Shown: piece by piece, positions 2,935 to 46,264 of the stretch
Position numbering within the stretch: the first letter of the stretch is position 1
How the letters are laid out: every line of letters starts with the position of its first letter
Notes under the pieces: model-generated
Seen by the model: only the letters and a program-made list of their open reading frames with translations
Told to the model about the DNA's origin: nothing
Database searches by the model: none
Translations under genes and position numbers: made by a program
IMG/VR virus record: IMGVR_UViG_3300010224_000001
Location: 224,001 to 288,000 of that record
Strand: one strand, 5' to 3'
Source: a virus
DNA length: 64,000 nt

Positions 2935-3327
2935 TTAAACTTCAAGTGGTGTTGTGCTGTGAATGATGGTGGCAATGCTCCAGGTCTGCGAGTTGATATT
3001 GCGTTCCAATTCTTCGTAAGCATCTTGCGGCACTTTACCACGTACGTTCGCCAGGTACTGATGAGCGACTTCAGCGGTAGGACGTGCACCGTTCGATGTG
3101 GCAAACACGTTGGTTTCTTTCACGTGCGGGTATTGCGAGACTTCTTGATTCGTTTCAATGTCCACGACATAGGCTTCCCAGTTAACGGATGCTTTCTGCG
3201 CGACTACCGTTACTGCGGGCACGTTCACGAGTTGGCCCGAACGATCGGACCAGATACGACGGCGAACCACAGGTGCAGCAAACAGAGCGGGGTTGATAGC
3301 AGTAGCATACGAAGCATGTACGTTCAT
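2935..3327 (-). CDS. hypothetical protein
   Basis: 130 aa ORF, GAGG SD. Confidence 0.65.
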   Translation of the reverse strand: MNVHASYATAINPALFAAPVVRRRIWSDRSGQLVNVPAVTVVAQKASVNWEAYVVDIETNQEVSQYPHVKETNVFATSNGARPTAEVAHQYLANVRGKVPQDAYEELERNINSQTWSIATIIHSTTPLEV

Positions 3328-3462
3328 TTAAGTATTTCCTCTTTATTTAAAGCCACGTCTAGGTGTGGACTTTCTTACCATGAAAAGATAAAGTTAGCTG
3401 TTGTATCAGCTGGATGTTTATAGTACTGCAGTCCTGTTCCGGATCCAGGACCTCTTGGTTGA

Positions 3463-3870
3463 TTAAGCCATAGCAGCACTGGCTCGTGGGACTCTTGTGT
3501 CAAGATTAAACAACATTAAACTCAACTTGCTCTTCACATAACGACGTGTGGTCGTGCCACAATACGTTAGCTTGCCATATCGACGCACAACGTCAGGCAA
3601 TTGAAGCAGTTGTTCGAATGAATCAATCAGATCAGACAGAGTCGTGTCAGGATCTAATTGAGTAGGGTTAATCTCAGGCGAGAGTTTGAGCCCGAAACGA
3701 TAAAACTTGCTATCCCTGTAAGGAGCAGCAAGCATGAAACCGAAATTATCAACCGCTATTTTCGTAAGCTTGGTTGAAGAGTCGCCGCGCAGTTCTAACA
3801 CGCCAACTGGCGTCTCAATGCTGGCAACAGATGTACTGAAGAACATGATTCTATTCCTATAAAAAGACAT
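3463..3870 (-). CDS. hypothetical protein
   Basis: 135 aa ORF after early promoter. Confidence 0.55.
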   Translation of the reverse strand: MSFYRNRIMFFSTSVASIETPVGVLELRGDSSTKLTKIAVDNFGFMLAAPYRDSKFYRFGLKLSPEINPTQLDPDTTLSDLIDSFEQLLQLPDVVRRYGKLTYCGTTTRRYVKSKLSLMLFNLDTRVPRASAAMA

Positions 3871-3891
3871 TCCTAGTTGCTCACCAGGAGA

Positions 3892-3917
3892 GTGATATAG
3901 GTCTTAAAAACTCTACA
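3892..3917 (-). promoter_or_regulatory. phiKZ-type early promoter
   Basis: TGTAGAG-N11-TATATCAC, same 26-nt spacing as other copies. Confidence 0.6.
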
Positions 3918-3931
3918 TCACTCGGATTGTC

Positions 3932-4459
3932 TTAATACTTAGGCCCTGCTGTGAGATACTTGGCGGGATTCCAATAACCTGGGTTATCGATGTTGTCGCT
4001 ATAATCCCGAGGAATGTCGTATTGCGATTCAATCAGTAACGGCACAGCATTGCTAAACTTCTTTAAGTCAGTGGTTCTGACTAAGTAAGGCGAGAATGGA
4101 CTAGCCCAACCTCCGATGGTGTATGCCAGCTGTTCATTACCATCGTAAAGTTGGGATTCCAAAAGTTTCTTGTAGACGATGTCGATAAACCCCCTGCATA
4201 ACAAATCTACATGTTCAACTAGAGCCGGATTCTTTTCGATATCGGGAAAGTACTTATCCGCTATCTCAAAAGTCAATGCTTCTACCGCTTCTTTCTTGCA
4301 ATGCGCGTGATGCAAGAAACGTAAAGTATCGACAAAAATCCTTTCTATTTGAATGACTTGTCTACCCATGGTGTACACTGTTAAGAGTCTTGTAAACTCA
4401 GCCAGTGCTTGGGCGATGTCGAGAATAATGACTCGACTTTTGTTATTTGGGTTGTTCAT
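3932..4459 (-). CDS. hypothetical protein
   Basis: 175 aa ORF. Confidence 0.65.
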   Translation of the reverse strand: MNNPNNKSRVIILDIAQALAEFTRLLTVYTMGRQVIQIERIFVDTLRFLHHAHCKKEAVEALTFEIADKYFPDIEKNPALVEHVDLLCRGFIDIVYKKLLESQLYDGNEQLAYTIGGWASPFSPYLVRTTDLKKFSNAVPLLIESQYDIPRDYSDNIDNPGYWNPAKYLTAGPKY

Positions 4460-4940
4460 CGATCGTGTATGACCAGTTCTGATGCTTGTTAATCCTGGCT
4501 GTCCATTTCTCTAAAACGATGTCGTTGAAGTTCTCTGTCTTTACAGGAACAAGAGAATACGGTAAGTATCCTTTCAAAGTGCGCAAACCATACTCTTCAA
4601 TTTGTTCTTGAATGGTTTTTGAAAACGCTCTTGCGATCTCTCTGAAGTTACGTTTATCGTGCAGTTTACATTCTGCATCCACGTTTCCTTCACTGTCAAC
4701 TGACAGAGCATGATAAGGATAAGGTGGCAACCAGAGATTCATATCGGTTTTGATCAGCCAAGTGCGTGCTTTGCGTTCGGATTCACTGTAAATGTAAAGA
4801 GCGTCGATTAACTCGCTTACCTCTTTATTCAAACGACGACGCAGATATAGCTTCGGGCGTTCAGGGAACGATGCTTCAAGAATCTCTAGCATCGCTGGAT
4901 AGTTACCACCCGACGAGAGAACCAGTCTTTGTTTTTCCAT
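4443..4940 (-). CDS. hypothetical protein
   Basis: 165 aa ORF, AAGGAG SD. Confidence 0.65.
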   Translation of the reverse strand: MEKQRLVLSSGGNYPAMLEILEASFPERPKLYLRRRLNKEVSELIDALYIYSESERKARTWLIKTDMNLWLPPYPYHALSVDSEGNVDAECKLHDKRNFREIARAFSKTIQEQIEEYGLRTLKGYLPYSLVPVKTENFNDIVLEKWTARINKHQNWSYTIDEQPK

Positions 4941-5061
4941 AATGCAGTTTTCTCCTTCACTAGATCAGAATGCTAAATATATTTGTGACGAAAAAATTGA
5001 CGTAGAACAAATTCTCAACCATACGGCATAAAGCCAGCCATAAAGGCTGGCCACTATGCTG

Positions 5062-33209: not shown

Positions 33210-33602
33210 CTAGCGCATACCAAACATGTTGAGGAACTTACGTTTTGATTCTGTCTTAACTACAGTCGGCTTTACTTCACGAACTGTTGGAATGATAAGA
33301 CCTTTATCAGCATCGTACTTCATGTTGCTATAAGGTTCGAACACCGCAGATGGAAACGCCGCACGTTCAAAACGCGGACCGCCAGGACCCATAAACCAGT
33401 CATGTCCGCTAAGCTGACCTGGTTCGTAATTCCAGACACTTTCAGACCACTCCACATCACCATCAAAATCACCAGCCAGATCCGCAAGAGTAAGAATCTT
33501 CTTCTCTTTTGGAACTGCGATCTTCATCAACGATTCTGCACGCACAAAAGCTGGAGCTGAAGCAACTGCCAGCATTGCACCTAAAAAGCCACGACGATTC
33601 AT
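33210..33602 (-). CDS. Tat-signal protein
   Basis: MNRRGFLGAMLAVASAPAFVRAESLMKI. Confidence 0.7.
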   Translation of the reverse strand: MNRRGFLGAMLAVASAPAFVRAESLMKIAVPKEKKILTLADLAGDFDGDVEWSESVWNYEPGQLSGHDWFMGPGGPRFERAAFPSAVFEPYSNMKYDADKGLIIPTVREVKPTVVKTESKRKFLNMFGMR

Positions 33603-33913
33603 AGATTACTCGGTAAGTGTTGAGTGGATTTCAACGCCGCCACAGCAGAGTCTCTGAAACCTGTATACACTTCAAGACGAAGCTCTGCCTCAGATATACC
33701 ACGCTCTTTTGCCATTGCTGAACATTGAACGTAATCGAAATAAGAAGTGTCAGGATACCATCCGTCATAAAGAGCAGCGGAAGCATCCATATACTCATTA
33801 TAGACTCGACTGGCTTGCTGTTCAATGGTCTCAGTGTTTTGCGACTTAGCTAACGCAAAGACTGGTGTGATGGCGCCAGCAACAGCAAAATTAAGAAATT
33901 GTCGCCGGTTCAT
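33599..33913 (-). CDS. Tat-signal protein
   Basis: MNRRQFL...ALA. Confidence 0.7.
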   Translation of the reverse strand: MNRRQFLNFAVAGAITPVFALAKSQNTETIEQQASRVYNEYMDASAALYDGWYPDTSYFDYVQCSAMAKERGISEAELRLEVYTGFRDSAVAALKSTQHLPSNL

Positions 33914-34286
33914 ATCGGAATCTTTCAGTCACCCACTCATTATCCAGCCAGTTAGACATGGGGTCGTGAGGGAATAGTTTTGAATGTTCTACTATCTCAG
34001 CAGCGTTCATTACTCTAGGATGAGATAAACCAACTGTTATTAAAGCTGGTAAATCTGCCACATGGTTGAAAGCTGGCTGCACTCGCAGTTCACTAGTTGG
34101 GTTCCGGCTAACAGGCACAACCATAACGAGTTCTGGTTTCCAGACCATCGTTCCAAACGCTAGAGGATGTGGTAGAAGGATTATCTCCTTCTTTGGCACC
34201 ACTATCTTCATTATGTTTTCGGCTTTAACAATAGCAGGCGCCGCTATAGCGCCTACCATTAAGCCGAGGAAGCCCCGGCGTTTCAT
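33891..34286 (-). CDS. Tat-signal protein
   Basis: MKRRGFLGL...APAIVKAENIMKI. Confidence 0.7.
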   Translation of the reverse strand: MKRRGFLGLMVGAIAAPAIVKAENIMKIVVPKKEIILLPHPLAFGTMVWKPELVMVVPVSRNPTSELRVQPAFNHVADLPALITVGLSHPRVMNAAEIVEHSKLFPHDPMSNWLDNEWVTERFRYEPATIS

Positions 34287-40736: not shown

Positions 40737-42437
40737 TTACATAAAGCCGCTATCTACACGTTTGGTGACCTTCAGGATATTCACCAAGGTGTATTTGAAA
40801 CGAACGCCACACAACTCAACTGCACGGTTTAACGCCGTTACGAATTCAGGACGAAGAGAGATGCGCTCGCTGATTTCGTAAAGAGAAAGCTTACCCGGCA
40901 CTGTCATATGTTTCATAGCCAGCGCAGTATAGATCTCCATACGCTTTTCAACGATGCTGTTGATATCAACACCCATGTGGTTAGTAGCTTTATAGCCAGA
41001 GGGAGCTGTAAACATGCCGTTAATACCTTCGTCATTATGGACCTTACCCGTCGGAGAATGGCTATTGATGTACTCGTCCATTTCCTTGGAATCCATACTC
41101 GAACTAGCATTCAAGAAATGGAAGTTCCGCAAGTCCTGCACGCCGACGTTAGTAATAACATCGCCAATGGTAACTACTTCATTGGTGTGATAAATTACAC
41201 TCTCAGGCGCTAAGGAATTGTCATTGAAGTACCGGTCAAAACCGCCGTTCGTGAAATTGTTGATGATGGTTCGCATTTCACGATGTGCTCCTTCGCTACC
41301 ATTTTTTAGTGCCGCCAACATCCCCAGCAGATCTTCCGACGAACTTGCCAATGATGGGTAGTCGAAGGAAACGATTGCATTCTCATGACATGCCTTACGC
41401 ATGAATTCAAGCACATTGTTTTCATCAACTTGCTCGAACTCCTTGCTGATCCGTTTGTTACCCCCCAAAAGTTTATTAACGCAGAGAATGCCATCCGAGT
41501 CTTTAAGGTTAGTGAAACCGTTAACCCAAATATACTCGTTATTGATCTTCTGCACCGAAGCCAAAATGGTAAGAAGGACTTCGTTATCAGAACCTTCAGT
41601 GCTTACCGCGGTTACGATAAAGCGAGGAATATACTTCTTAACTTCATCCTTCCCATCCCAGACCAAATCGAAATAACCATACGCAGTACCGAGTGGCGAG
41701 TTGGAGTTGTACACCGGATGATTGATTTGAGCACTTACTTCGTAAAGACTGATTTTAACATCAGCCCGGACCGGCGAACCGTAGTAGTTGTGGATCTTTT
41801 CTTGACAGTTAAAATCGATCTCCACATCAAAACGGCTATTTCTCGAAACCTCGGCCAGATTGAAAGGAACGAATTCCTTGTCATTGCGACTCATGCCGGT
41901 GGAGATCTCAGAGAGTGCTTTATTGCAAAGCGCCATTACGGTTTCAGAATTGCAGAAATCAACTTCCCAGGGAATGTAAGTTTCACCGCAGTGGATAGCA
42001 GGAGCACTTTCCTTTTCAAGTAACTCATTACGAATATACTGATTGATATCAACCATGAATTCACGATGAATAAGGTCGACAGCTTGCCGCGAAACCAGCG
42101 GCTTCTGGGTTCTGTTGAACAAGGTCGCGCCGTTTGGCGCCTGAGCCGGAAGATGAATGATGTGGTAGAAAAGCTGCCCGCTATCCTGCGGACGAACTGT
42201 CATCAGAATTGCGGTGAAGACGCCATCGTTTTTGTAATCGAAAGGGAAGGCACCGACGGACACATTCGACATCATGCTCTCTGCTTCGCTAGCGAACGCA
42301 TCCAGTTTGGTTTTGAATTCCGTCAGGAGACTGTTGCTAGACTTCGGACCGAAAGCGTGGCGTTTGAATAAATCTTTGAAATGATTACGCGGTTCTTGTT
42401 GGTTTTGATAGCCTTGCTGTTGTTTGCTGTTTTCCAT
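40737..42437 (-). CDS. chimallin (phage nucleus shell)-like protein, probably a divergent paralog
   Basis: GSPVRAD, GYFDLVW, YIPRFIVT, DLRNFHFLN, RISLRPEFVTAL match ChmA motifs as recalled. Confidence 0.6.
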   Translation of the reverse strand: MENSKQQQGYQNQQEPRNHFKDLFKRHAFGPKSSNSLLTEFKTKLDAFASEAESMMSNVSVGAFPFDYKNDGVFTAILMTVRPQDSGQLFYHIIHLPAQAPNGATLFNRTQKPLVSRQAVDLIHREFMVDINQYIRNELLEKESAPAIHCGETYIPWEVDFCNSETVMALCNKALSEISTGMSRNDKEFVPFNLAEVSRNSRFDVEIDFNCQEKIHNYYGSPVRADVKISLYEVSAQINHPVYNSNSPLGTAYGYFDLVWDGKDEVKKYIPRFIVTAVSTEGSDNEVLLTILASVQKINNEYIWVNGFTNLKDSDGILCVNKLLGGNKRISKEFEQVDENNVLEFMRKACHENAIVSFDYPSLASSSEDLLGMLAALKNGSEGAHREMRTIINNFTNGGFDRYFNDNSLAPESVIYHTNEVVTIGDVITNVGVQDLRNFHFLNASSSMDSKEMDEYINSHSPTGKVHNDEGINGMFTAPSGYKATNHMGVDINSIVEKRMEIYTALAMKHMTVPGKLSLYEISERISLRPEFVTALNRAVELCGVRFKYTLVNILKVTKRVDSGFM

Positions 42438-43017: not shown

Positions 43018-43120
43018 TTATAACTCCTTTAAAAGGCACTCCATTTACAACAAAAAAGTAAGTCTACACATCGTCGTTATAGACGTGCTCCATGTAGACT
43101 TACTGCTACCATTCAGACTA

Positions 43121-43146: not shown

Positions 43147-44016
43147 TTAGCGAGGACGGCGGTTGTAATTAACACGGTAGGCTTGAATATCATAACCAAG
43201 TAATTCGACTTTGTTATTTTGCCAGTGTTCGTTACGCACTTGGACAATTTCGCCATTTACTTCAATCGTGCCGAACTGAAGATTAACAGTACCGGTAATT
43301 TTAACATATGCCTTTGCATCACCAAAATCTTGAATGCCGTCAAAATTAAGAACTTGGTCACGGTAATTACTCGCAACAGACGGTGTGAATACATTCAAAG
43401 CTTGATCGAGTAAACTGACTTTCACGACAGCGCCATTCACATTCGCGTAGATGTTAGCCAGGCTTACTGCCGGATCAATGCAGTCGGTGCAATCTTGAAT
43501 GCCGGTATTAATGAGCGCATCAACAAAGCTAATACCTAGCAGATCGAGTTTCTTACCAAATTGAAGAGCGGAAGTCAGAATCTCTTGACCTGCGAGTTCA
43601 ACAACGTTAGGAGTCAGTGTGTTGATGTTGACGAAGAAATCAGCAGACTCTTTCCTGTAGACCGGAACAATTGGAAGACCAGGAAGAGTTGCTTCTGCTG
43701 GAGCTTCTTCTGTTAAAATATAGCCACTGGTATCTTCGGCACCATACAGTTCCCAATCCTCAGCGAAGATGTCTTCCATATTAGGAATCCAGTTCTTAAC
43801 TAAGCAATTATCTTCGCCAAGTCTGGTTTCTACAGCCATTGAAAAAGTATGGTCTTGTTTACCTTCGCTGTAATAGGTAAACTTAAACACGTACCTTTTC
43901 ATAGGTGGAGTTTCCCAAGCTAGACGAGTAACATGAAAGCCTCGTTTCATGCGTTCTAGAGCATCGCCAAAGGAGAGACCAGTTCTCTTTTCTGCTTCTT
44001 GTGTAATTTCGGACAT
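43147..44016 (-). CDS. DUF2829/Tad2-like domain fused to a major-capsid-protein internal domain
   Basis: FGDALERMKRG..VTRLAW...W.P...DIFAEDW; then ADFFV, LDLLGIS, D.IDPA..L.N, N.NRR.R. Confidence 0.7.
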   Translation of the reverse strand: MSEITQEAEKRTGLSFGDALERMKRGFHVTRLAWETPPMKRYVFKFTYYSEGKQDHTFSMAVETRLGEDNCLVKNWIPNMEDIFAEDWELYGAEDTSGYILTEEAPAEATLPGLPIVPVYRKESADFFVNINTLTPNVVELAGQEILTSALQFGKKLDLLGISFVDALINTGIQDCTDCIDPAVSLANIYANVNGAVVKVSLLDQALNVFTPSVASNYRDQVLNFDGIQDFGDAKAYVKITGTVNLQFGTIEVNGEIVQVRNEHWQNNKVELLGYDIQAYRVNYNRRPR

Positions 44017-44277
44017 GTTTTGTTTTAAGGTAATAAGAGTTGAATCCTACGCCTCCTAATATTGGAAGCGTAGGTATTTTGTTATGCCGTCTTAACGAAT
44101 CGAAGCGCTATTACCTTCGAGCACACGCACTTCGTCATCAAAACGAGTATCCGGCACTTTGAAGGTAGAGCTAGGTTCTTGCTTAGCAGATTCGGTTTTC
44201 TGGTTTGCTTTGACCATTCGAGCGATGTCGTCAGTCAGAGGGACTTTACGTTTGGTGATTGGATCGTCCATTTGTAT

Positions 44278-45873
44278 TTATTCAGCCTTAGGAGTATCGG
44301 TTTCAAGAGCAATGGATTCTGGTTTATACGAAAGATCATCGATGTGGAAAATCGCACCATTCATACCGCGAGGTTGCTTTACTTCATCTTGCGGATTAGC
44401 TTTCAGATAAGCTTCGACTTCTTCTGGGGTCGGAACTTGACCAGGATCGCCAGTGATCATCTCATTAAAAGATGCGTTCGACATTTCTTGACCATCCAGA
44501 AGCGGAGTCAGATTGACATCAGGATCCACATGACCACCGTCATCTACTGGAGCTTTCGTACCGTCTTCACCTTTAAGAACTGCAAACTTTTGACGCCAGC
44601 TAACTTCAAGAGCTTTTTCTTCCTCAGGAGTCAAGAAGATAGTACGACCTTTATCATCAGTAATACTAACAGTACGGGTCTTATCGGTAGTATCCGCAGT
44701 GCCGTCAAGATTACGTTTTACGTTCATGCTAATGAGCGGGACGAATGGCTTGAGCACCGGAGGATCGACCGACATGTCCATCGTCGTGCTATCTACATTA
44801 CCAAGGAAGACTTGGAACAGCGCTTCCGCAGTTACGTCACTTGCACAGTTAAGGAAGTTAGCGCGTTCTTCCGGATCAGTGATCTCTTCAACGCCTAGAG
44901 CAAGCTTAAGTGGTTCAGTAGAAGTAGTGATCGCTTCAGCAACCTTTGCTTCTTCTTCCAAGAAATTACTGTTAGCTTGCACTTGATCCTTAAGACTCTC
45001 AGCCAACTTACCAGCCACATCCAGCGCATCACTCAGCTTCGTTTTACGATCAGCCACGTCCGCTTCCAGCATAGCGCGCGTCCAAGGTTCGAGCGTATAT
45101 TCAGAATCCAGCAGTTGGCGCGCAGTCATCGGCTCCATGACTTCCAGTTCATCTTCACCTGCGGTCAGTTTGTAACCCAATGGCAGAATCATGTTCATGA
45201 TCACGCCCAGGTGCAGAATCTCTGGATCGGTATTTTGGGTGATGAACTGATTAGCGAACTCGAACCTGACTTCAGTCTCGCTAACCTGTACTCCGCTCTT
45301 GTTATAAATACGGGTTTCTTCAGTCAGGATTTCACGAACTGAATTACCAATGACAGTATTGAACAAATCAATATCGCCATTCGGAAGGTAAATAACGTCC
45401 GGAGCATCAATGTGACCGCCGTAACCAATCGAGACTTTGTTAGCCAGTTTCGATTCGCCTACCTTATTGGTACGGAAGTACGGGAAGTACAGCTTCTCAC
45501 CGTTTTCCAGAATCGAGCAGATTGCACAATACGGAAGGATCTGACGGAAGTTACGATTACCGGTATACGTCTGACCATTTTCATCGTAATTTATTTGATT
45601 GTCCAACATCTCACGACGACCAATGAACAGATAACTCTTTACTTCTTTCAGCCACTGCACCGCCGGATAAGCATTAATGCCATCTTTAAAGTTTTCTACA
45701 TTCCTGACCACAACACCGTTACTGGAGAATGAAATGGGGCTGAAATAATCAGCATCGACAGCTAGGATGAATTGCGGATGTTTGGGATCTTCTACATGTT
45801 GCTGTTGATCTTCGTTCCACTTATATTTAAACTGAAGTGCGACAGCGAGTTCTTGCGGATTTTCTACTTGCAT
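44278..45873 (-). CDS. NUDIX-like hydrolase with acidic C-terminal extension
   Basis: RQILPY, SIGYGGHID, REILTEET, HLG, LEPWT. Confidence 0.65.
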   Translation of the reverse strand: MQVENPQELAVALQFKYKWNEDQQQHVEDPKHPQFILAVDADYFSPISFSSNGVVVRNVENFKDGINAYPAVQWLKEVKSYLFIGRREMLDNQINYDENGQTYTGNRNFRQILPYCAICSILENGEKLYFPYFRTNKVGESKLANKVSIGYGGHIDAPDVIYLPNGDIDLFNTVIGNSVREILTEETRIYNKSGVQVSETEVRFEFANQFITQNTDPEILHLGVIMNMILPLGYKLTAGEDELEVMEPMTARQLLDSEYTLEPWTRAMLEADVADRKTKLSDALDVAGKLAESLKDQVQANSNFLEEEAKVAEAITTSTEPLKLALGVEEITDPEERANFLNCASDVTAEALFQVFLGNVDSTTMDMSVDPPVLKPFVPLISMNVKRNLDGTADTTDKTRTVSITDDKGRTIFLTPEEEKALEVSWRQKFAVLKGEDGTKAPVDDGGHVDPDVNLTPLLDGQEMSNASFNEMITGDPGQVPTPEEVEAYLKANPQDEVKQPRGMNGAIFHIDDLSYKPESIALETDTPKAE

Positions 45874-45934
45874 GACATTCCTTCTTAGTTGATTATTGGC
45901 AATTCTACATTTGATTACGTAGGTGCAACTTTTT

Positions 45935-46264
45935 TTATTTCTTCTTACGTTTCTTAGCAGCTTGAAGAAACTTCTCAACCTGATTTATCTTTGCTCTCTT
46001 ACCGACGATAGAATTAGCGAGAGGTCGTTTACCTTCTTTTGCTTGCTTGTCAAAACTATTTTCAGCAGCAATTAACTCCAAGTCAGTCTTCTGTCGGCCT
46101 TCAGGACGATTCCATCCGAAGAATGCAGTATTCGGCCAAGGTATTGGAAAGTTAGTACTAGTAACAATCGTTTCACTTGTTCCAAAAGGAGCACGATAGA
46201 AGTATTCACGACTAGACAAACTTGGAGTAGGATACGTAATTTCGGATTTGGTAAAATGTTTCAT
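45935..46264 (-). CDS. hypothetical basic protein
   Basis: 109 aa ORF. Confidence 0.55.
   Translation of the reverse strand: MKHFTKSEITYPTPSLSSREYFYRAPFGTSETIVTSTNFPIPWPNTAFFGWNRPEGRQKTDLELIAAENSFDKQAKEGKRPLANSIVGKRAKINQVEKFLQAAKKRKKK

What the first reader, a model, noticed from the sequence alone, without database searches (positions are those of the whole stretch)
43147..44016. Tad2-like sponge domain fused to an isolated major-capsid domain
Seen: residues about 12-90 have the DUF2829 pattern. The rest (ADFFV, LDLLGIS..LI..G, D.IDPA..L.N.Y, GTVNL..G, GY.I...R.N.NRR.R) follows an internal segment of phiKZ major capsid gp120 as I recall it. Known: DUF2829 includes Tad2, which sequesters Thoeris and CBASS signals, and capsid proteins trigger several defence sensors. 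Inference: a bait-plus-sponge anti-defence protein or a capsid-associated sponge.
Basis: partly seen in the sequence, partly recalled or inferred. Interest (0 to 1): 0.75.

Follow-up and report, generated by a model that had tools for sequence, protein, structure and literature searches.

The report
Tad2 sponge fused to capsid I-domain
A giant nucleus-forming phage encodes a protein that joins a Tad2-type "sponge" domain for bacterial alarm molecules to a free copy of the surface knob of its capsid protein, a pairing that recurs with another sponge family and hints at a link between capsid sensing and signal sponging.

Summary
The 289-aa ORF (window 43147-44016, minus strand) has a Tad2-like/DUF2829 domain at residues ~13-92 (Pfam 45 bits; fold Z 10.5 to solved Tad2s). 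After a disordered linker comes a complete, precisely excised copy of the insertion (I) domain of the phiKZ-type major capsid protein (model 111-288 on gp120 248-469, Z 19.9).

New here: free I domains form a large family, 79 of 151 proteins examined, and mostly a lineage separate from the capsid proteins. Besides the 2 Tad2-like fusions, 9 are fused to Tad1-like domains, an unrelated Thoeris sponge family. In cultured Burkholderia phage FLC9 a free I-domain gene sits directly beside a Tad1-like gene.

The pocket keeps the two Trp and the Asp, but the phosphate-contacting Asn is Glu, so the ligand is uncertain.

My reading: an anti-signalling protein whose I domain couples the sponge to the capsid-sensing arm of immunity, as a sensor decoy (favoured) or a capsid tether. 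No function was tested.

The scan had already noted similar Tad2-capsid-domain fusions on other DNA. I found no published description.

The parts
43147..44016 (-). Whole gene: 289-aa two-domain protein (stop codon 43147-43149)
   Evidence: ORF list. Same two-domain architecture in P0003, 301 aa, 43% identical.
43741..43980 (-). Tad2-like (DUF2829) domain, residues ~13-92
   Evidence: Pfam PF11195, 45.4 bits, E 1.2e-11. phmmer to solved Tad2s: 8wje 2.8e-6, 8sme 4.9e-6, 9eib 8.5e-6. AF2 model mean pLDDT 76.4. Foldseek hits listed through rank 24 are all Tad2 entries, prob 1.00. VIA Z 10.5, rmsd 2.1-2.5 A over 73-76 residues; next unrelated hit Z 5.4.
43687..43740 (-). Linker, residues ~93-110, acidic and predicted disordered
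   Evidence: pLDDT below 50 for residues 86-102 in the full-length model. Not conserved between ours and P0003.
43150..43686 (-). Free MCP insertion (I) domain, residues ~111-289, ending in the conserved N-NRRPR motif at the C-terminus
   Evidence: Pfam PF25620, 71.5 bits. 31% identity to own MCP 231-452. AF2 pLDDT 88-98 per block (83 in the last, 9-residue block). VIA: model 111-288 on phiKZ gp120 248-469, Z 19.9, rmsd 2.3 A, 176 residues. The paper defines the I domain as gp120 248-472 (PMC11297242, Fig. 2 legend).
43052..43104 (-). Terminator-like hairpin (12-bp stem, about 24-nt loop) followed by a T run, just downstream of the gene
   Evidence: Read by eye from the sequence. The consensus scan did not call it, because its loop limit is 8.

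Best explanation
This is a two-module anti-signalling (counter-defence) protein of an uncultured nucleus-forming jumbo phage. SHOWN: module 1 (residues ~13-92) is a genuine Tad2-family domain by sequence and by predicted fold. Module 2 (residues ~111-289) is a complete, free-standing copy of the capsid protein's surface I domain. It belongs to a large family of free I domains that are recurrently fused or adjacent to Thoeris sponge domains of two unrelated families, Tad1-like and Tad2-like. INFERRED: module 1 assembles like Tad2 into a tetramer and sequesters an NAD-derived immune signal (gcADPR-like). Its exact ligand may differ, because the phosphate-contacting Asn is Glu here. INFERRED, and my favoured sub-mechanism (about 0.35 on its own): module 2 acts as a non-activating mimic of the part of the capsid protein that capsid-sensing immune receptors grasp (TIR/ThsB-like or CD-NTase-associated sensors). 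It would hold the sensor without supplying the rest of the activating surface, while the fused sponge mops up any signal that is still made. The confidence given below is for the general statement (sponge plus an I-domain module functionally coupled to signalling immunity), not for the decoy step.
For: Tad2 membership: Pfam 45.4 bits against cut-off 25; full-length alignments to solved Tad2s; fold Z 10.5 with all top 10 entries Tad2. W34 and W76 (SPO1 W25 and W73, the main ligand contacts) are W in 51 of 51 relatives, and D82 corresponds to SPO1 D79.
I domain: Z 19.9 on gp120 248-469.
Coupling of I domains to sponges: of 151 proteins (150 best hits plus ours), 79 are non-MCP I-domain proteins and 31 of those have extensions of 60 aa or more. 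Of those 31, 9 carry a Tad1-like domain, in both domain orders, and 2 carry a Tad2-like domain. P0010's extension hits Tad1 structures at E 1e-11 and phiKZ gp184 at 3e-12. In FLC9, the free I-domain gene gp132 is followed after 18 nt by gp131, a cyclophilin plus Tad1-like protein.
The architecture is conserved at 43% identity in P0003.
The I domain has a function of its own: 48 module-only proteins, and P0002 (80% identical) lacks the Tad2 domain yet keeps the I domain.
Decoy logic: in Sau-Thoeris, ThsB1 binding needs the MCP E-loop while ThsB2 recruitment needs the distant P-loop (section 9 of PMC12578639), and the phiKZ I domain is an extension of the E-loop. Tad3-6 are reported to co-purify with ThsB (passage).
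Free I domains have lost about a dozen MCP-conserved positions and two loops and show no family-specific conserved residues, so they are a trimmed subset of the MCP's features. 201phi2-1 gp106 carries no virion-MS flag although the record flags such proteins.
Against: No function was measured.
The pocket is not canonical. SPO1 N26 is E35 here, a residue seen in 0 of 51 relatives, and it is V in P0003, so it is not even conserved between the two fusions. T78 is E81, S76 is N79 and H71 is K74. A Glu next to a diphosphate may abolish or change binding.
Tetramer formation was not tested.
The decoy step rests on an analogy with a staphylococcal siphophage system. No capsid-sensing receptor is known for this phage's unknown host.
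Our I domain is only 31% identical to the phage's own MCP. Most free I domains (75 of 82 non-MCP rows) fall on the MCP-free side of a strongly supported split, so they do not track their own capsid, which a close mimic might be expected to do.
Twenty of the 31 extension-bearing I-domain proteins have partners with no recognisable sponge domain.
The gene lacks the promoter-like motif found upstream of 16 other genes, so its timing is unknown.
Confidence: 0.6

Rival explanations
1. Capsid-tethered sponge. The I domain binds the phage's own capsid protein or (pro)capsid, for example through the I-domain-to-I-domain contact seen in capsids. That would place the sponge on capsids, either to shield the capsid surface from sensors or to carry the sponge with the particle, as phiKZ does with Tad1/gp184.
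For: phiKZ gp184/Tad1 is a minor capsid protein whose C-terminal part is reported to be released and injected (passages). I domains form dimers between capsomers and sit on neighbouring subunits in the phiKZ capsid. Earlier scan notes (unchecked) report Tad2 fused to a capsid-decoration-like domain in P1-like phages.
Against: In the lattice every I-domain site is filled by the MCP's own I domain, and the I domain lies on the outside, from where a protein is not injected (inference). Free I domains have lost about a dozen MCP-conserved positions and two loops. 201phi2-1 gp106 is not flagged as a virion protein although the record flags those found by mass spectrometry. No conserved protease-type site lies in the linker of ours and P0003 (the motif is recalled, not from a call).
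Confidence: 0.22
2. Plain sponge with a passive partner. The I domain only serves as a stable, soluble or oligomerising scaffold. It is a handy compact domain whose N- and C-termini meet, and it has no link to capsid sensing.
For: Insertion domains have adjacent termini and are easy to fuse at either end, and fusions occur in both orders. Many partners are unrelated to known sponges.
Against: 48 of 79 non-MCP proteins are the I domain alone, so it must do something by itself. A passive scaffold does not explain the repeated pairing with two unrelated Thoeris sponge families or the adjacency in FLC9.
Confidence: 0.1
3. Not counter-defence. The free I-domain family acts in head assembly or in capsid trafficking and docking in nucleus-forming phages, and the DUF2829 domain here binds some other ligand.
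For: The gene lies two genes from a chimallin paralog, and 201phi2-1 gp106 lies directly after chimallin gp105. The pocket deviates from canonical Tad2.
Against: phiKZ and Goslar have no free I domain, so it is accessory rather than core. The partners identified so far are anti-defence sponges.
Confidence: 0.06
4. Chance chimera or decaying remnant of a recombination between a Tad2 gene and an MCP fragment.
For: The locus also holds other fragments or paralogs of structural genes.
Against: The domain boundaries are exact. The fold is predicted with pLDDT about 95. The architecture is kept at 43% identity. The reading frame is intact, with a terminator-like hairpin after it.
Confidence: 0.02

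Closest known systems
Tad2 (Thoeris anti-defence 2; SPO1 gp34.65, ModTad2, HgmTad2/AcrIIA7, SptTad2; Pfam PF11195/DUF2829)
   Same: The N-terminal domain matches the family profile over its whole length and matches the solved structures (Z about 10.5). It keeps the two ligand-stacking Trp and the Asp: W34, W76 and D82 correspond to SPO1 W25, W73 and D79.
   Different: Known Tad2s in the papers I read are small stand-alone proteins; SPO1 Tad2 is 89 aa. Here the domain carries a 180-aa capsid-derived domain. The conserved W-N-G-K motif reads W-E-T-P, and S-x-T-D reads N-M-E-D. The W-to-W spacing is 42 residues, against 48 in SPO1 and 66 in HgmTad2, so the long insertion that forms the cyclic-dinucleotide pocket in HgmTad2 is absent.
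phiKZ gp184 / Tad1, a capsid-anchored sponge of a nucleus-forming jumbo phage
   Same: A Thoeris/CBASS sponge domain joined to a capsid-related part in a chimallivirus (passages). Its Tad1-like domain is the one fused to free I domains in 9 proteins found here.
   Different: gp184 uses an extended N-terminal arm wedged inside the capsid, and its sponge is Tad1-type. Ours uses a folded copy of the outer I domain and a Tad2-type sponge. No Tad1-like ORF exists in our genome.
I (insertion) domain of phiKZ-type major capsid proteins (gp120 residues 248-472; also phiKp24 MCP)
   Same: Same fold and same boundaries (Z 19.9 and 19.3). Shared motifs: DLLGIS, TD-IDP, GNYR, NL--G, GY-L-A-R-N-NRR.
   Different: It is not embedded in an HK97-fold protein: there are no N-arm, P or A domains and no linkers. 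It lacks two loops conserved in MCPs. It falls on the MCP-free side of a strongly supported tree split.
Sensor-binding anti-Thoeris proteins Tad3-Tad6 (seen only as a passage in the editorial PMC13728456)
   Same: Precedent for blocking Thoeris at the sensor (co-purification with ThsB) rather than at the signal, which is what the decoy reading proposes for the I domain.
   Different: No sequence or fold relation was tested. The similarity is in the proposed mode of action only.

Membership tests
Tad2 / DUF2829 (PF11195) | Match to the family profile above the curated cut-off, over the whole domain | tested here: met
   45.4 bits against cut-off 25, profile 2-72 of 73. It is the only such domain in the genome.
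Tad2 / DUF2829 (PF11195) | Tad2 fold (N-terminal helix plus antiparallel sheet) | tested here: met
   AF2 model with 28-row alignment, mean pLDDT 76.4. VIA Z 10.1-10.5, rmsd 2.1-2.9 A, 73-76 residues to nine of the ten top entries (tenth: Z 9.4, 72 residues), all Tad2; next hit Z 5.4.
Tad2 / DUF2829 (PF11195) | gcADPR pocket residues (SPO1 W25, N26, W73, D79, plus T78, S76, H71) | tested here: inconclusive
   W34, W76 and D82 are kept. N26 is E35 (E in 0 of 51 relatives; V in P0003). T78 is E81 (E in 8 of 51). S76 is N79 (N in 3 of 51). H71 is K74. D82 lies in the pattern used to fetch the relatives, so its 51 of 51 is by construction.
Tad2 / DUF2829 (PF11195) | Homotetramer that forms the pockets between protomers | not tested
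Tad2 / DUF2829 (PF11195) | Binds an immune signal and inhibits Thoeris | not testable with these tools
   Needs biochemistry and plaque assays.
HgmTad2-type dual sponges (extra cyclic-dinucleotide pocket) | Long insertion (35-41 residues) between beta2 and beta5 | tested here: not met
   W34 to W76 spans 42 residues, against 66 in HgmTad2 (W21 to W87) and 48 in SPO1 (W25 to W73). Residue numbers come, the alignment.
phiKZ-type major capsid protein (PF25620) | Complete HK97-type body: N-arm, P domain, A domain, C-arm | tested here: not met
   Only profile positions 146-265 match, and only gp120 248-469 superposes. The real MCP is elsewhere in the genome, G000:C1:159246-161138, E 1.5e-188.
phiKZ-type MCP I domain | Fold and boundaries of the I domain (gp120 248-472) | tested here: met
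   Z 19.9, rmsd 2.3 A, 176 residues, model 111-288 on chain 248-469. Boundaries from PMC11297242.
Capsid-anchored injected sponge (phiKZ gp184/Tad1 type) | Tad1-type sponge domain | tested here: not met
   No ORF of 45 aa or more in the genome matches a profile of the 9 Tad1-like domains at E of 1 or less.
Capsid-anchored injected sponge (phiKZ gp184/Tad1 type) | Physical presence in the capsid and release by the head protease | not testable with these tools
   Needs virion proteomics. The phage is uncultured.

The most novel reading that the evidence does not exclude
Free capsid I domains are a widespread, undescribed class of 'trigger mimics'. They occupy capsid-sensing immune receptors (TIR/ThsB-like or CD-NTase partners) without activating them. 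Jumbo phages repeatedly weld them to signal sponges (Tad1, Tad2 and perhaps further unrecognised nucleotide binders such as the small P-loop-like partner), giving a two-layer block that acts on both the sensor and the signal.
Probability: 0.3. Interest if true: 0.85.

Novelty: new variant of a known kind. Interest (0 to 1): 0.7.

Why it matters
A 2026 review passage states that Tad1 is so far the only anti-defence protein described in jumbo phages (PMC13282480). This gene would add a Tad2-type candidate. More importantly, it exposes a large family of free capsid I domains whose repeated pairing with two unrelated Thoeris sponge families makes an open question directly testable: how do phages deal with immune systems that sense their capsid proteins? 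Nucleus-forming phages hide their DNA, so their cytoplasm-exposed proteins, the capsid protein above all, are the obvious targets left to the host. Cultured phages carrying the module (FLC9, RTH11, 201phi2-1) make experiments feasible.

Tried and rejected
Close relatives: the search for related loci with the single protein found none in IMG/VR. The word-based search for short relatives of residues 1-110 found none.

Pattern scans with alignments of free I domains failed because no stretch was conserved enough. I switched to whole-record searches of five named phages.

Complex prediction of our I domain against the phage's own MCP (residues 150-729) gave 'no answer' (scores 0.21 and 0.14, mark 0.32, controls not run). 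This is neither support for nor evidence against binding.

The I-domain dimer residues named for phiKZ (R296, D366, K415, D424) are not conserved even among MCPs, so they could not be used to ask whether free I domains still dimerise.

Promoter analysis: a hairpin plus TTTATGACG motif precedes 16 genes (1.7 expected), including the chimallin paralog, but not our gene. TATTAC-type words are only mildly enriched (16 against 6.3). Expression timing therefore remains unknown. The sigma-70 and terminator scan was uninformative.

A head-protease site in the linker: ours has G-A-E at 92-94 and P0003 has none. The S/A/G-x-E motif is recalled from memory, not from a call, so I draw no conclusion from it.

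My first guess that the recurrent C-terminal extension was Acb2-like (from memory) was wrong. The PDB search shows Tad1 and gp184, and Pfam has no model that catches it.

Other fusion partners gave nothing in Pfam, PHROGs or the PDB. These are the P-loop-like N-terminus of P0005, P0006 and P0008 and the N-terminus of P0032, P0054 and P0089 (of this trio P0032 was scanned in Pfam only and P0089 not against the PDB). The Atlas gave only sub-threshold leads (0.87).

The 'gp106' passage in PMC10643120 is a table row with a different phage's accession and is irrelevant to 201phi2-1 gp106.

The neighbouring 566-aa gene (44278-45978) has no PDB match.

Not in print, as far as I could search: (listings), plus passages of the papers named in the report, found no description of a sponge fused to an MCP I domain or of free I-domain proteins. 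Supplementary tables of the Tad2 papers (lists of homologs) were not opened and could contain such fused forms.
Full report
THE OBJECT. Window 43147-44016 (minus strand) is an intact 289-aa ORF with an ATG start. The window is part of a complete 322,570-bp virus record with direct terminal repeats. That record encodes a phiKZ-type major capsid protein (MCP, 729 aa, PF25620, E 1.5e-188) and two chimallin-family genes. It is therefore an uncultured nucleus-forming ('chimalli-type') jumbo phage. Its host is unknown.

OBSERVATION CHECK. Tad2-like (PF11195) covers residues 15-90 (45.4 bits against cut-off 25, profile 2-72 of 73). PhiKZ_MCP (PF25620) covers residues 115-226 and matches only profile positions 146-265 of 635 (71.5 bits). 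PHROGs concurs. BLASTP against the phage's own MCP aligns residues 116-289 with MCP 231-452 (31% identity, E 1e-24), with two deletions in our protein. The quoted motifs are all present in the translation.

WHAT THE C-TERMINAL HALF IS. An AlphaFold2 model built on a 68-row alignment gives pLDDT of about 88-98 per 10-residue block from residue 111 on (83 in the final, 9-residue block). Foldseek's three significant hits are jumbo-phage MCPs: phiKZ 8y6v at E 7.5e-13 and phiKp24 8bfl at 2.3e-12. The second aligner places model residues 111-288 on phiKZ gp120 residues 248-469 (Z 19.9, rmsd 2.3 A, 176 residues) and on the phiKp24 MCP (Z 19.3). The phiKZ capsid paper (PMC11297242, passages) defines the insertion (I) domain as residues 248-472. 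It describes the domain as an extension of the HK97 E-loop that sits on the outside of the capsid on the neighbouring subunit and forms I-domain dimers between capsomers. The C-terminal half is therefore one whole I domain, cut out at its natural boundaries, without linkers, N-arm, P domain or A domain.

A FAMILY OF FREE I DOMAINS. The exhaustive profile search returned 383 proteins at E of 1e-3 or less, and the best 150 were listed. Together with our protein these 151 sort as follows: 65 full-size MCPs, 7 MCP fragments and 79 non-MCP I-domain proteins. Of the 79, 48 are the I domain alone (under 60 aa outside it) and 31 have extensions of 60 aa or more. The stand-alone forms typically begin within a few residues of a '(I/V)P(I/V)YR-ES--FF' motif and end at or next to 'N-NRRPR'. 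One protein, P0004, has two I domains in tandem.

Whole-record searches of five named phages give this picture. phiKZ and Goslar have only the MCP copy. 201phi2-1 has gp106 (188 aa, directly after chimallin gp105) and a weak third match. RTH11 has one extra copy, and Burkholderia phage FLC9 has two. The module is therefore accessory, not core.

I built a quick IQ-TREE tree of 160 I-domain rows. The only row left out was P0004, because of its tandem domains. A split with SH-aLRT 99 puts 75 of the 82 non-MCP rows on one side with no MCP, and all 78 MCP rows on the other side with 7 non-MCP rows, several of them on long branches, including 201phi2-1 gp106 and FLC9 gp87. Our protein is not sister to its own MCP. 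The root is at the midpoint only, so 'clade' is not proven, but most free I domains are clearly not recent copies of their own phage's capsid gene. Compared with MCPs, the free group has lost about a dozen MCP-conserved positions and two conserved loops, and it has no strongly conserved position of its own.

THE N-TERMINAL HALF. phmmer aligns residues 9-90 over the full length of solved Tad2 proteins: SPO1 gp34.65 8wje at 2.8e-6 and 8sme at 4.9e-6, and ModTad2 9eib at 8.5e-6. With 26 Tad2-like relatives fetched from IMG/VR, plus our own sequence and P0003's N-terminal 100 residues, 28 rows in all, the domain folds at mean pLDDT 76.4. All hits listed by Foldseek through rank 24 are Tad2 structures (prob 1.00). 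VIA gives Z 10.1-10.5 (rmsd 2.1-2.9 A, 73-76 residues) for nine of the ten top entries and Z 9.4 (72 residues) for the tenth, with the next unrelated hit at Z 5.4.

The SPO1 Tad2-gcADPR structure paper (preprint, passages) names W25, W73, N26 and D79 as the main contacts, with T78, S76 and H71 contributing. By the alignment these correspond to W34, W76, E35, D82, E81, N79 and K74 in our protein. Across 51 relatives, W34 and W76 are invariant. The Asn is N in 38, F in 7, and never E. P0003 has V there. D82, F84, D87 and W88 lie in the pattern used to fetch the relatives, so their invariance is by construction.

The W-to-W spacing of 42 residues is shorter than in SPO1 (48) and far shorter than in HgmTad2 (66). 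HgmTad2's long insertion forms the cyclic-dinucleotide pocket (preprint, passages), so a CBASS-type second pocket is unlikely here. A 2025 preprint (passages) reports that Tad2 homologs collectively inhibit CBASS, Pycsar and three Thoeris types. A variant pocket may therefore mean a variant ligand rather than loss of function. This is the only Tad2-like domain in the genome, and no Tad1-like ORF exists there.

THE KEY COMPARATIVE RESULT. Only ours and P0003 carry the Tad2-like domain. However, nine other I-domain proteins share an extension that matches Tad1 structures (7uav and the 8kb series, E 1e-11) and phiKZ gp184 (E 3e-12). In seven of them the I domain comes first, and in two it comes last. 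On the tree the Tad1 fusions need 5 label changes, though the starred branches alone force only 1, so several origins are suggested but not shown.

In cultured phage FLC9, the free I-domain gene gp132 is followed after 18 nt on the same strand by gp131. That protein combines a cyclophilin with a Tad1-like domain (gp184 E 6e-20; Tad1 E 1e-13 to 7e-9). Thus 11 of the 31 extension-bearing I-domain proteins carry a domain of one of two unrelated Thoeris sponge families, and gene adjacency repeats the link.

The tree groups (P0003,(ours,P0002)) with support 96 and 98. P0002 is 80% identical to ours, starts with the same MSET and runs straight into the I domain. It has therefore most likely lost the Tad2 domain by an in-frame deletion. 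That loss, together with the 48 module-only proteins, shows that the I domain has a role of its own.

WHAT IS KNOWN THAT BEARS ON MECHANISM.
(i) phiKZ gp184 is Tad1. It is described as a minor capsid protein whose N-terminus is wedged into the capsid and whose C-terminal part is liberated by the head protease and injected (bioRxiv 2025.11.23.690004, passages; capsid paper). A 2026 review calls it the only anti-defence protein described in jumbo phages (passage).
(ii) Staphylococcal Thoeris is triggered by the capsid protein. ThsB1 binds the monomer in a way that needs the E-loop, and recruitment and activation of ThsB2 needs the P-loop about 60 A away (PMC12578639: abstract, sections 9 and 13 read in full).
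(iii) An editorial (passages) notes capsid or other structural proteins as triggers or escape loci for type IV Thoeris and CBASS, and says that Tad3-6 co-purify with ThsB.

MECHANISM, WITH ODDS.
Shown: the domain identities, the existence and distribution of the free I-domain family, and its recurrent coupling to Tad1- and Tad2-like domains.
Inferred: the protein is a counter-defence factor against nucleotide-signalling immunity (about 0.6).
For the I domain I favour a sensor decoy (about 0.35). It is an isolated E-loop-derived domain that offers the receptor's docking surface but not the rest of the activating surface, with the sponge catching any leak.
The main rival is a capsid tether or shield (about 0.22). 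phiKZ Tad1 provides a precedent, but three points weaken it: the outside position and full occupancy of I-domain sites in the lattice, the loss of MCP-conserved positions in free I domains, and the absence of a virion-MS flag on 201phi2-1 gp106 in a record that carries such flags.
A passive scaffold, a morphogenetic role and a dead chimera rank lower.

CONTEXT. On the minus strand the gene order is: a 566-aa gene (phrog_8902, unknown function), a possible 59-aa ORF, our gene, a terminator-like hairpin, a 164-aa ORF with no match, and then a divergent chimallin paralog (E 3.9e-21). The canonical chimallin lies about 227 kb away (E 1.9e-85). Expression timing could not be inferred.

EARLIER SCAN NOTES. 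This stretch had been read once before as 'Tad2 fused to a 190-aa unknown domain'. On other genomes the scan had noted Tad2 fused to capsid-derived domains in jumbo phages, one of them with a free copy of the domain as the next gene. It had also noted Tad2 fused to a capsid-decoration-like OB domain in P1-like phages. I did not see those sequences. They are leads that fit the pattern found here, not independent evidence.

NOVELTY AND VERDICT. Tad2, Tad1 and the I domain are each known. The free I-domain family and its fusion to sponges were not found in the literature I could search (supplements not opened). I class this as a new variant of a known kind, of real interest to the phage-defence field because it is directly testable in cultured phages.

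Noticed in passing
window 33210-34286 (minus strand): Three tandem small ORFs (131, 104 and 130 aa) each begin with a twin-arginine-like signal (M-K/N-R-R-G/Q-F-L...). The first also carries a copy of the MCP's C-terminal segment (PF25620 profile 566-623, E 1.2e-9). The Pfam TAT_signal match is weak (E 0.079). A second capsid-protein fragment reused in a small accessory gene, possibly exported.
   Followed up: partly
window 40737-42437 (minus strand); canonical copy at G000:C1:37259-39142: The 'chimallin' two genes downstream of our gene is a divergent paralog (phrog_4795 E 3.9e-21; Pfam 26.8 bits, just under the cut-off of 27; PDB chimallin E 2e-4). The genome's canonical chimallin lies elsewhere (E 1.9e-85). 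The locus thus holds paralogs of both major cytoplasm-exposed phage proteins.
   Followed up: partly
G000 genome-wide; for example upstream of window 40737-42437: A promoter-like element, a GC-rich hairpin immediately followed by (T)TTATGACG, lies upstream of 16 genes (1.7 expected), including the chimallin paralog but not our gene.
   Followed up: partly
L071 (Burkholderia phage FLC9, LC667451): gp132 at locus 4189-4941, gp131 at 3154-4170: gp131 is a cyclophilin-type prolyl isomerase fused to a Tad1-like domain, directly downstream of the free I-domain gene gp132. Both are annotated as hypothetical.
   Followed up: yes
proteins P0005, P0006, P0008 (N-terminal ~105-120 aa); P0004: Some free I domains are fused to a small P-loop-like domain (G-x-x-x-S-G-K-T-H) that resembles 70-92-aa viral mini-proteins in the Atlas (score 0.87, a lead only). 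It could be another nucleotide binder. P0004 has two I domains in tandem.
   Followed up: partly
window 44092-44271 (minus strand): A 59-aa ORF fills most of the gap between the upstream 566-aa gene and our gene. A 7-bp hairpin lies between it and our start codon, and no clear ribosome-binding site precedes our ATG.
   Followed up: no
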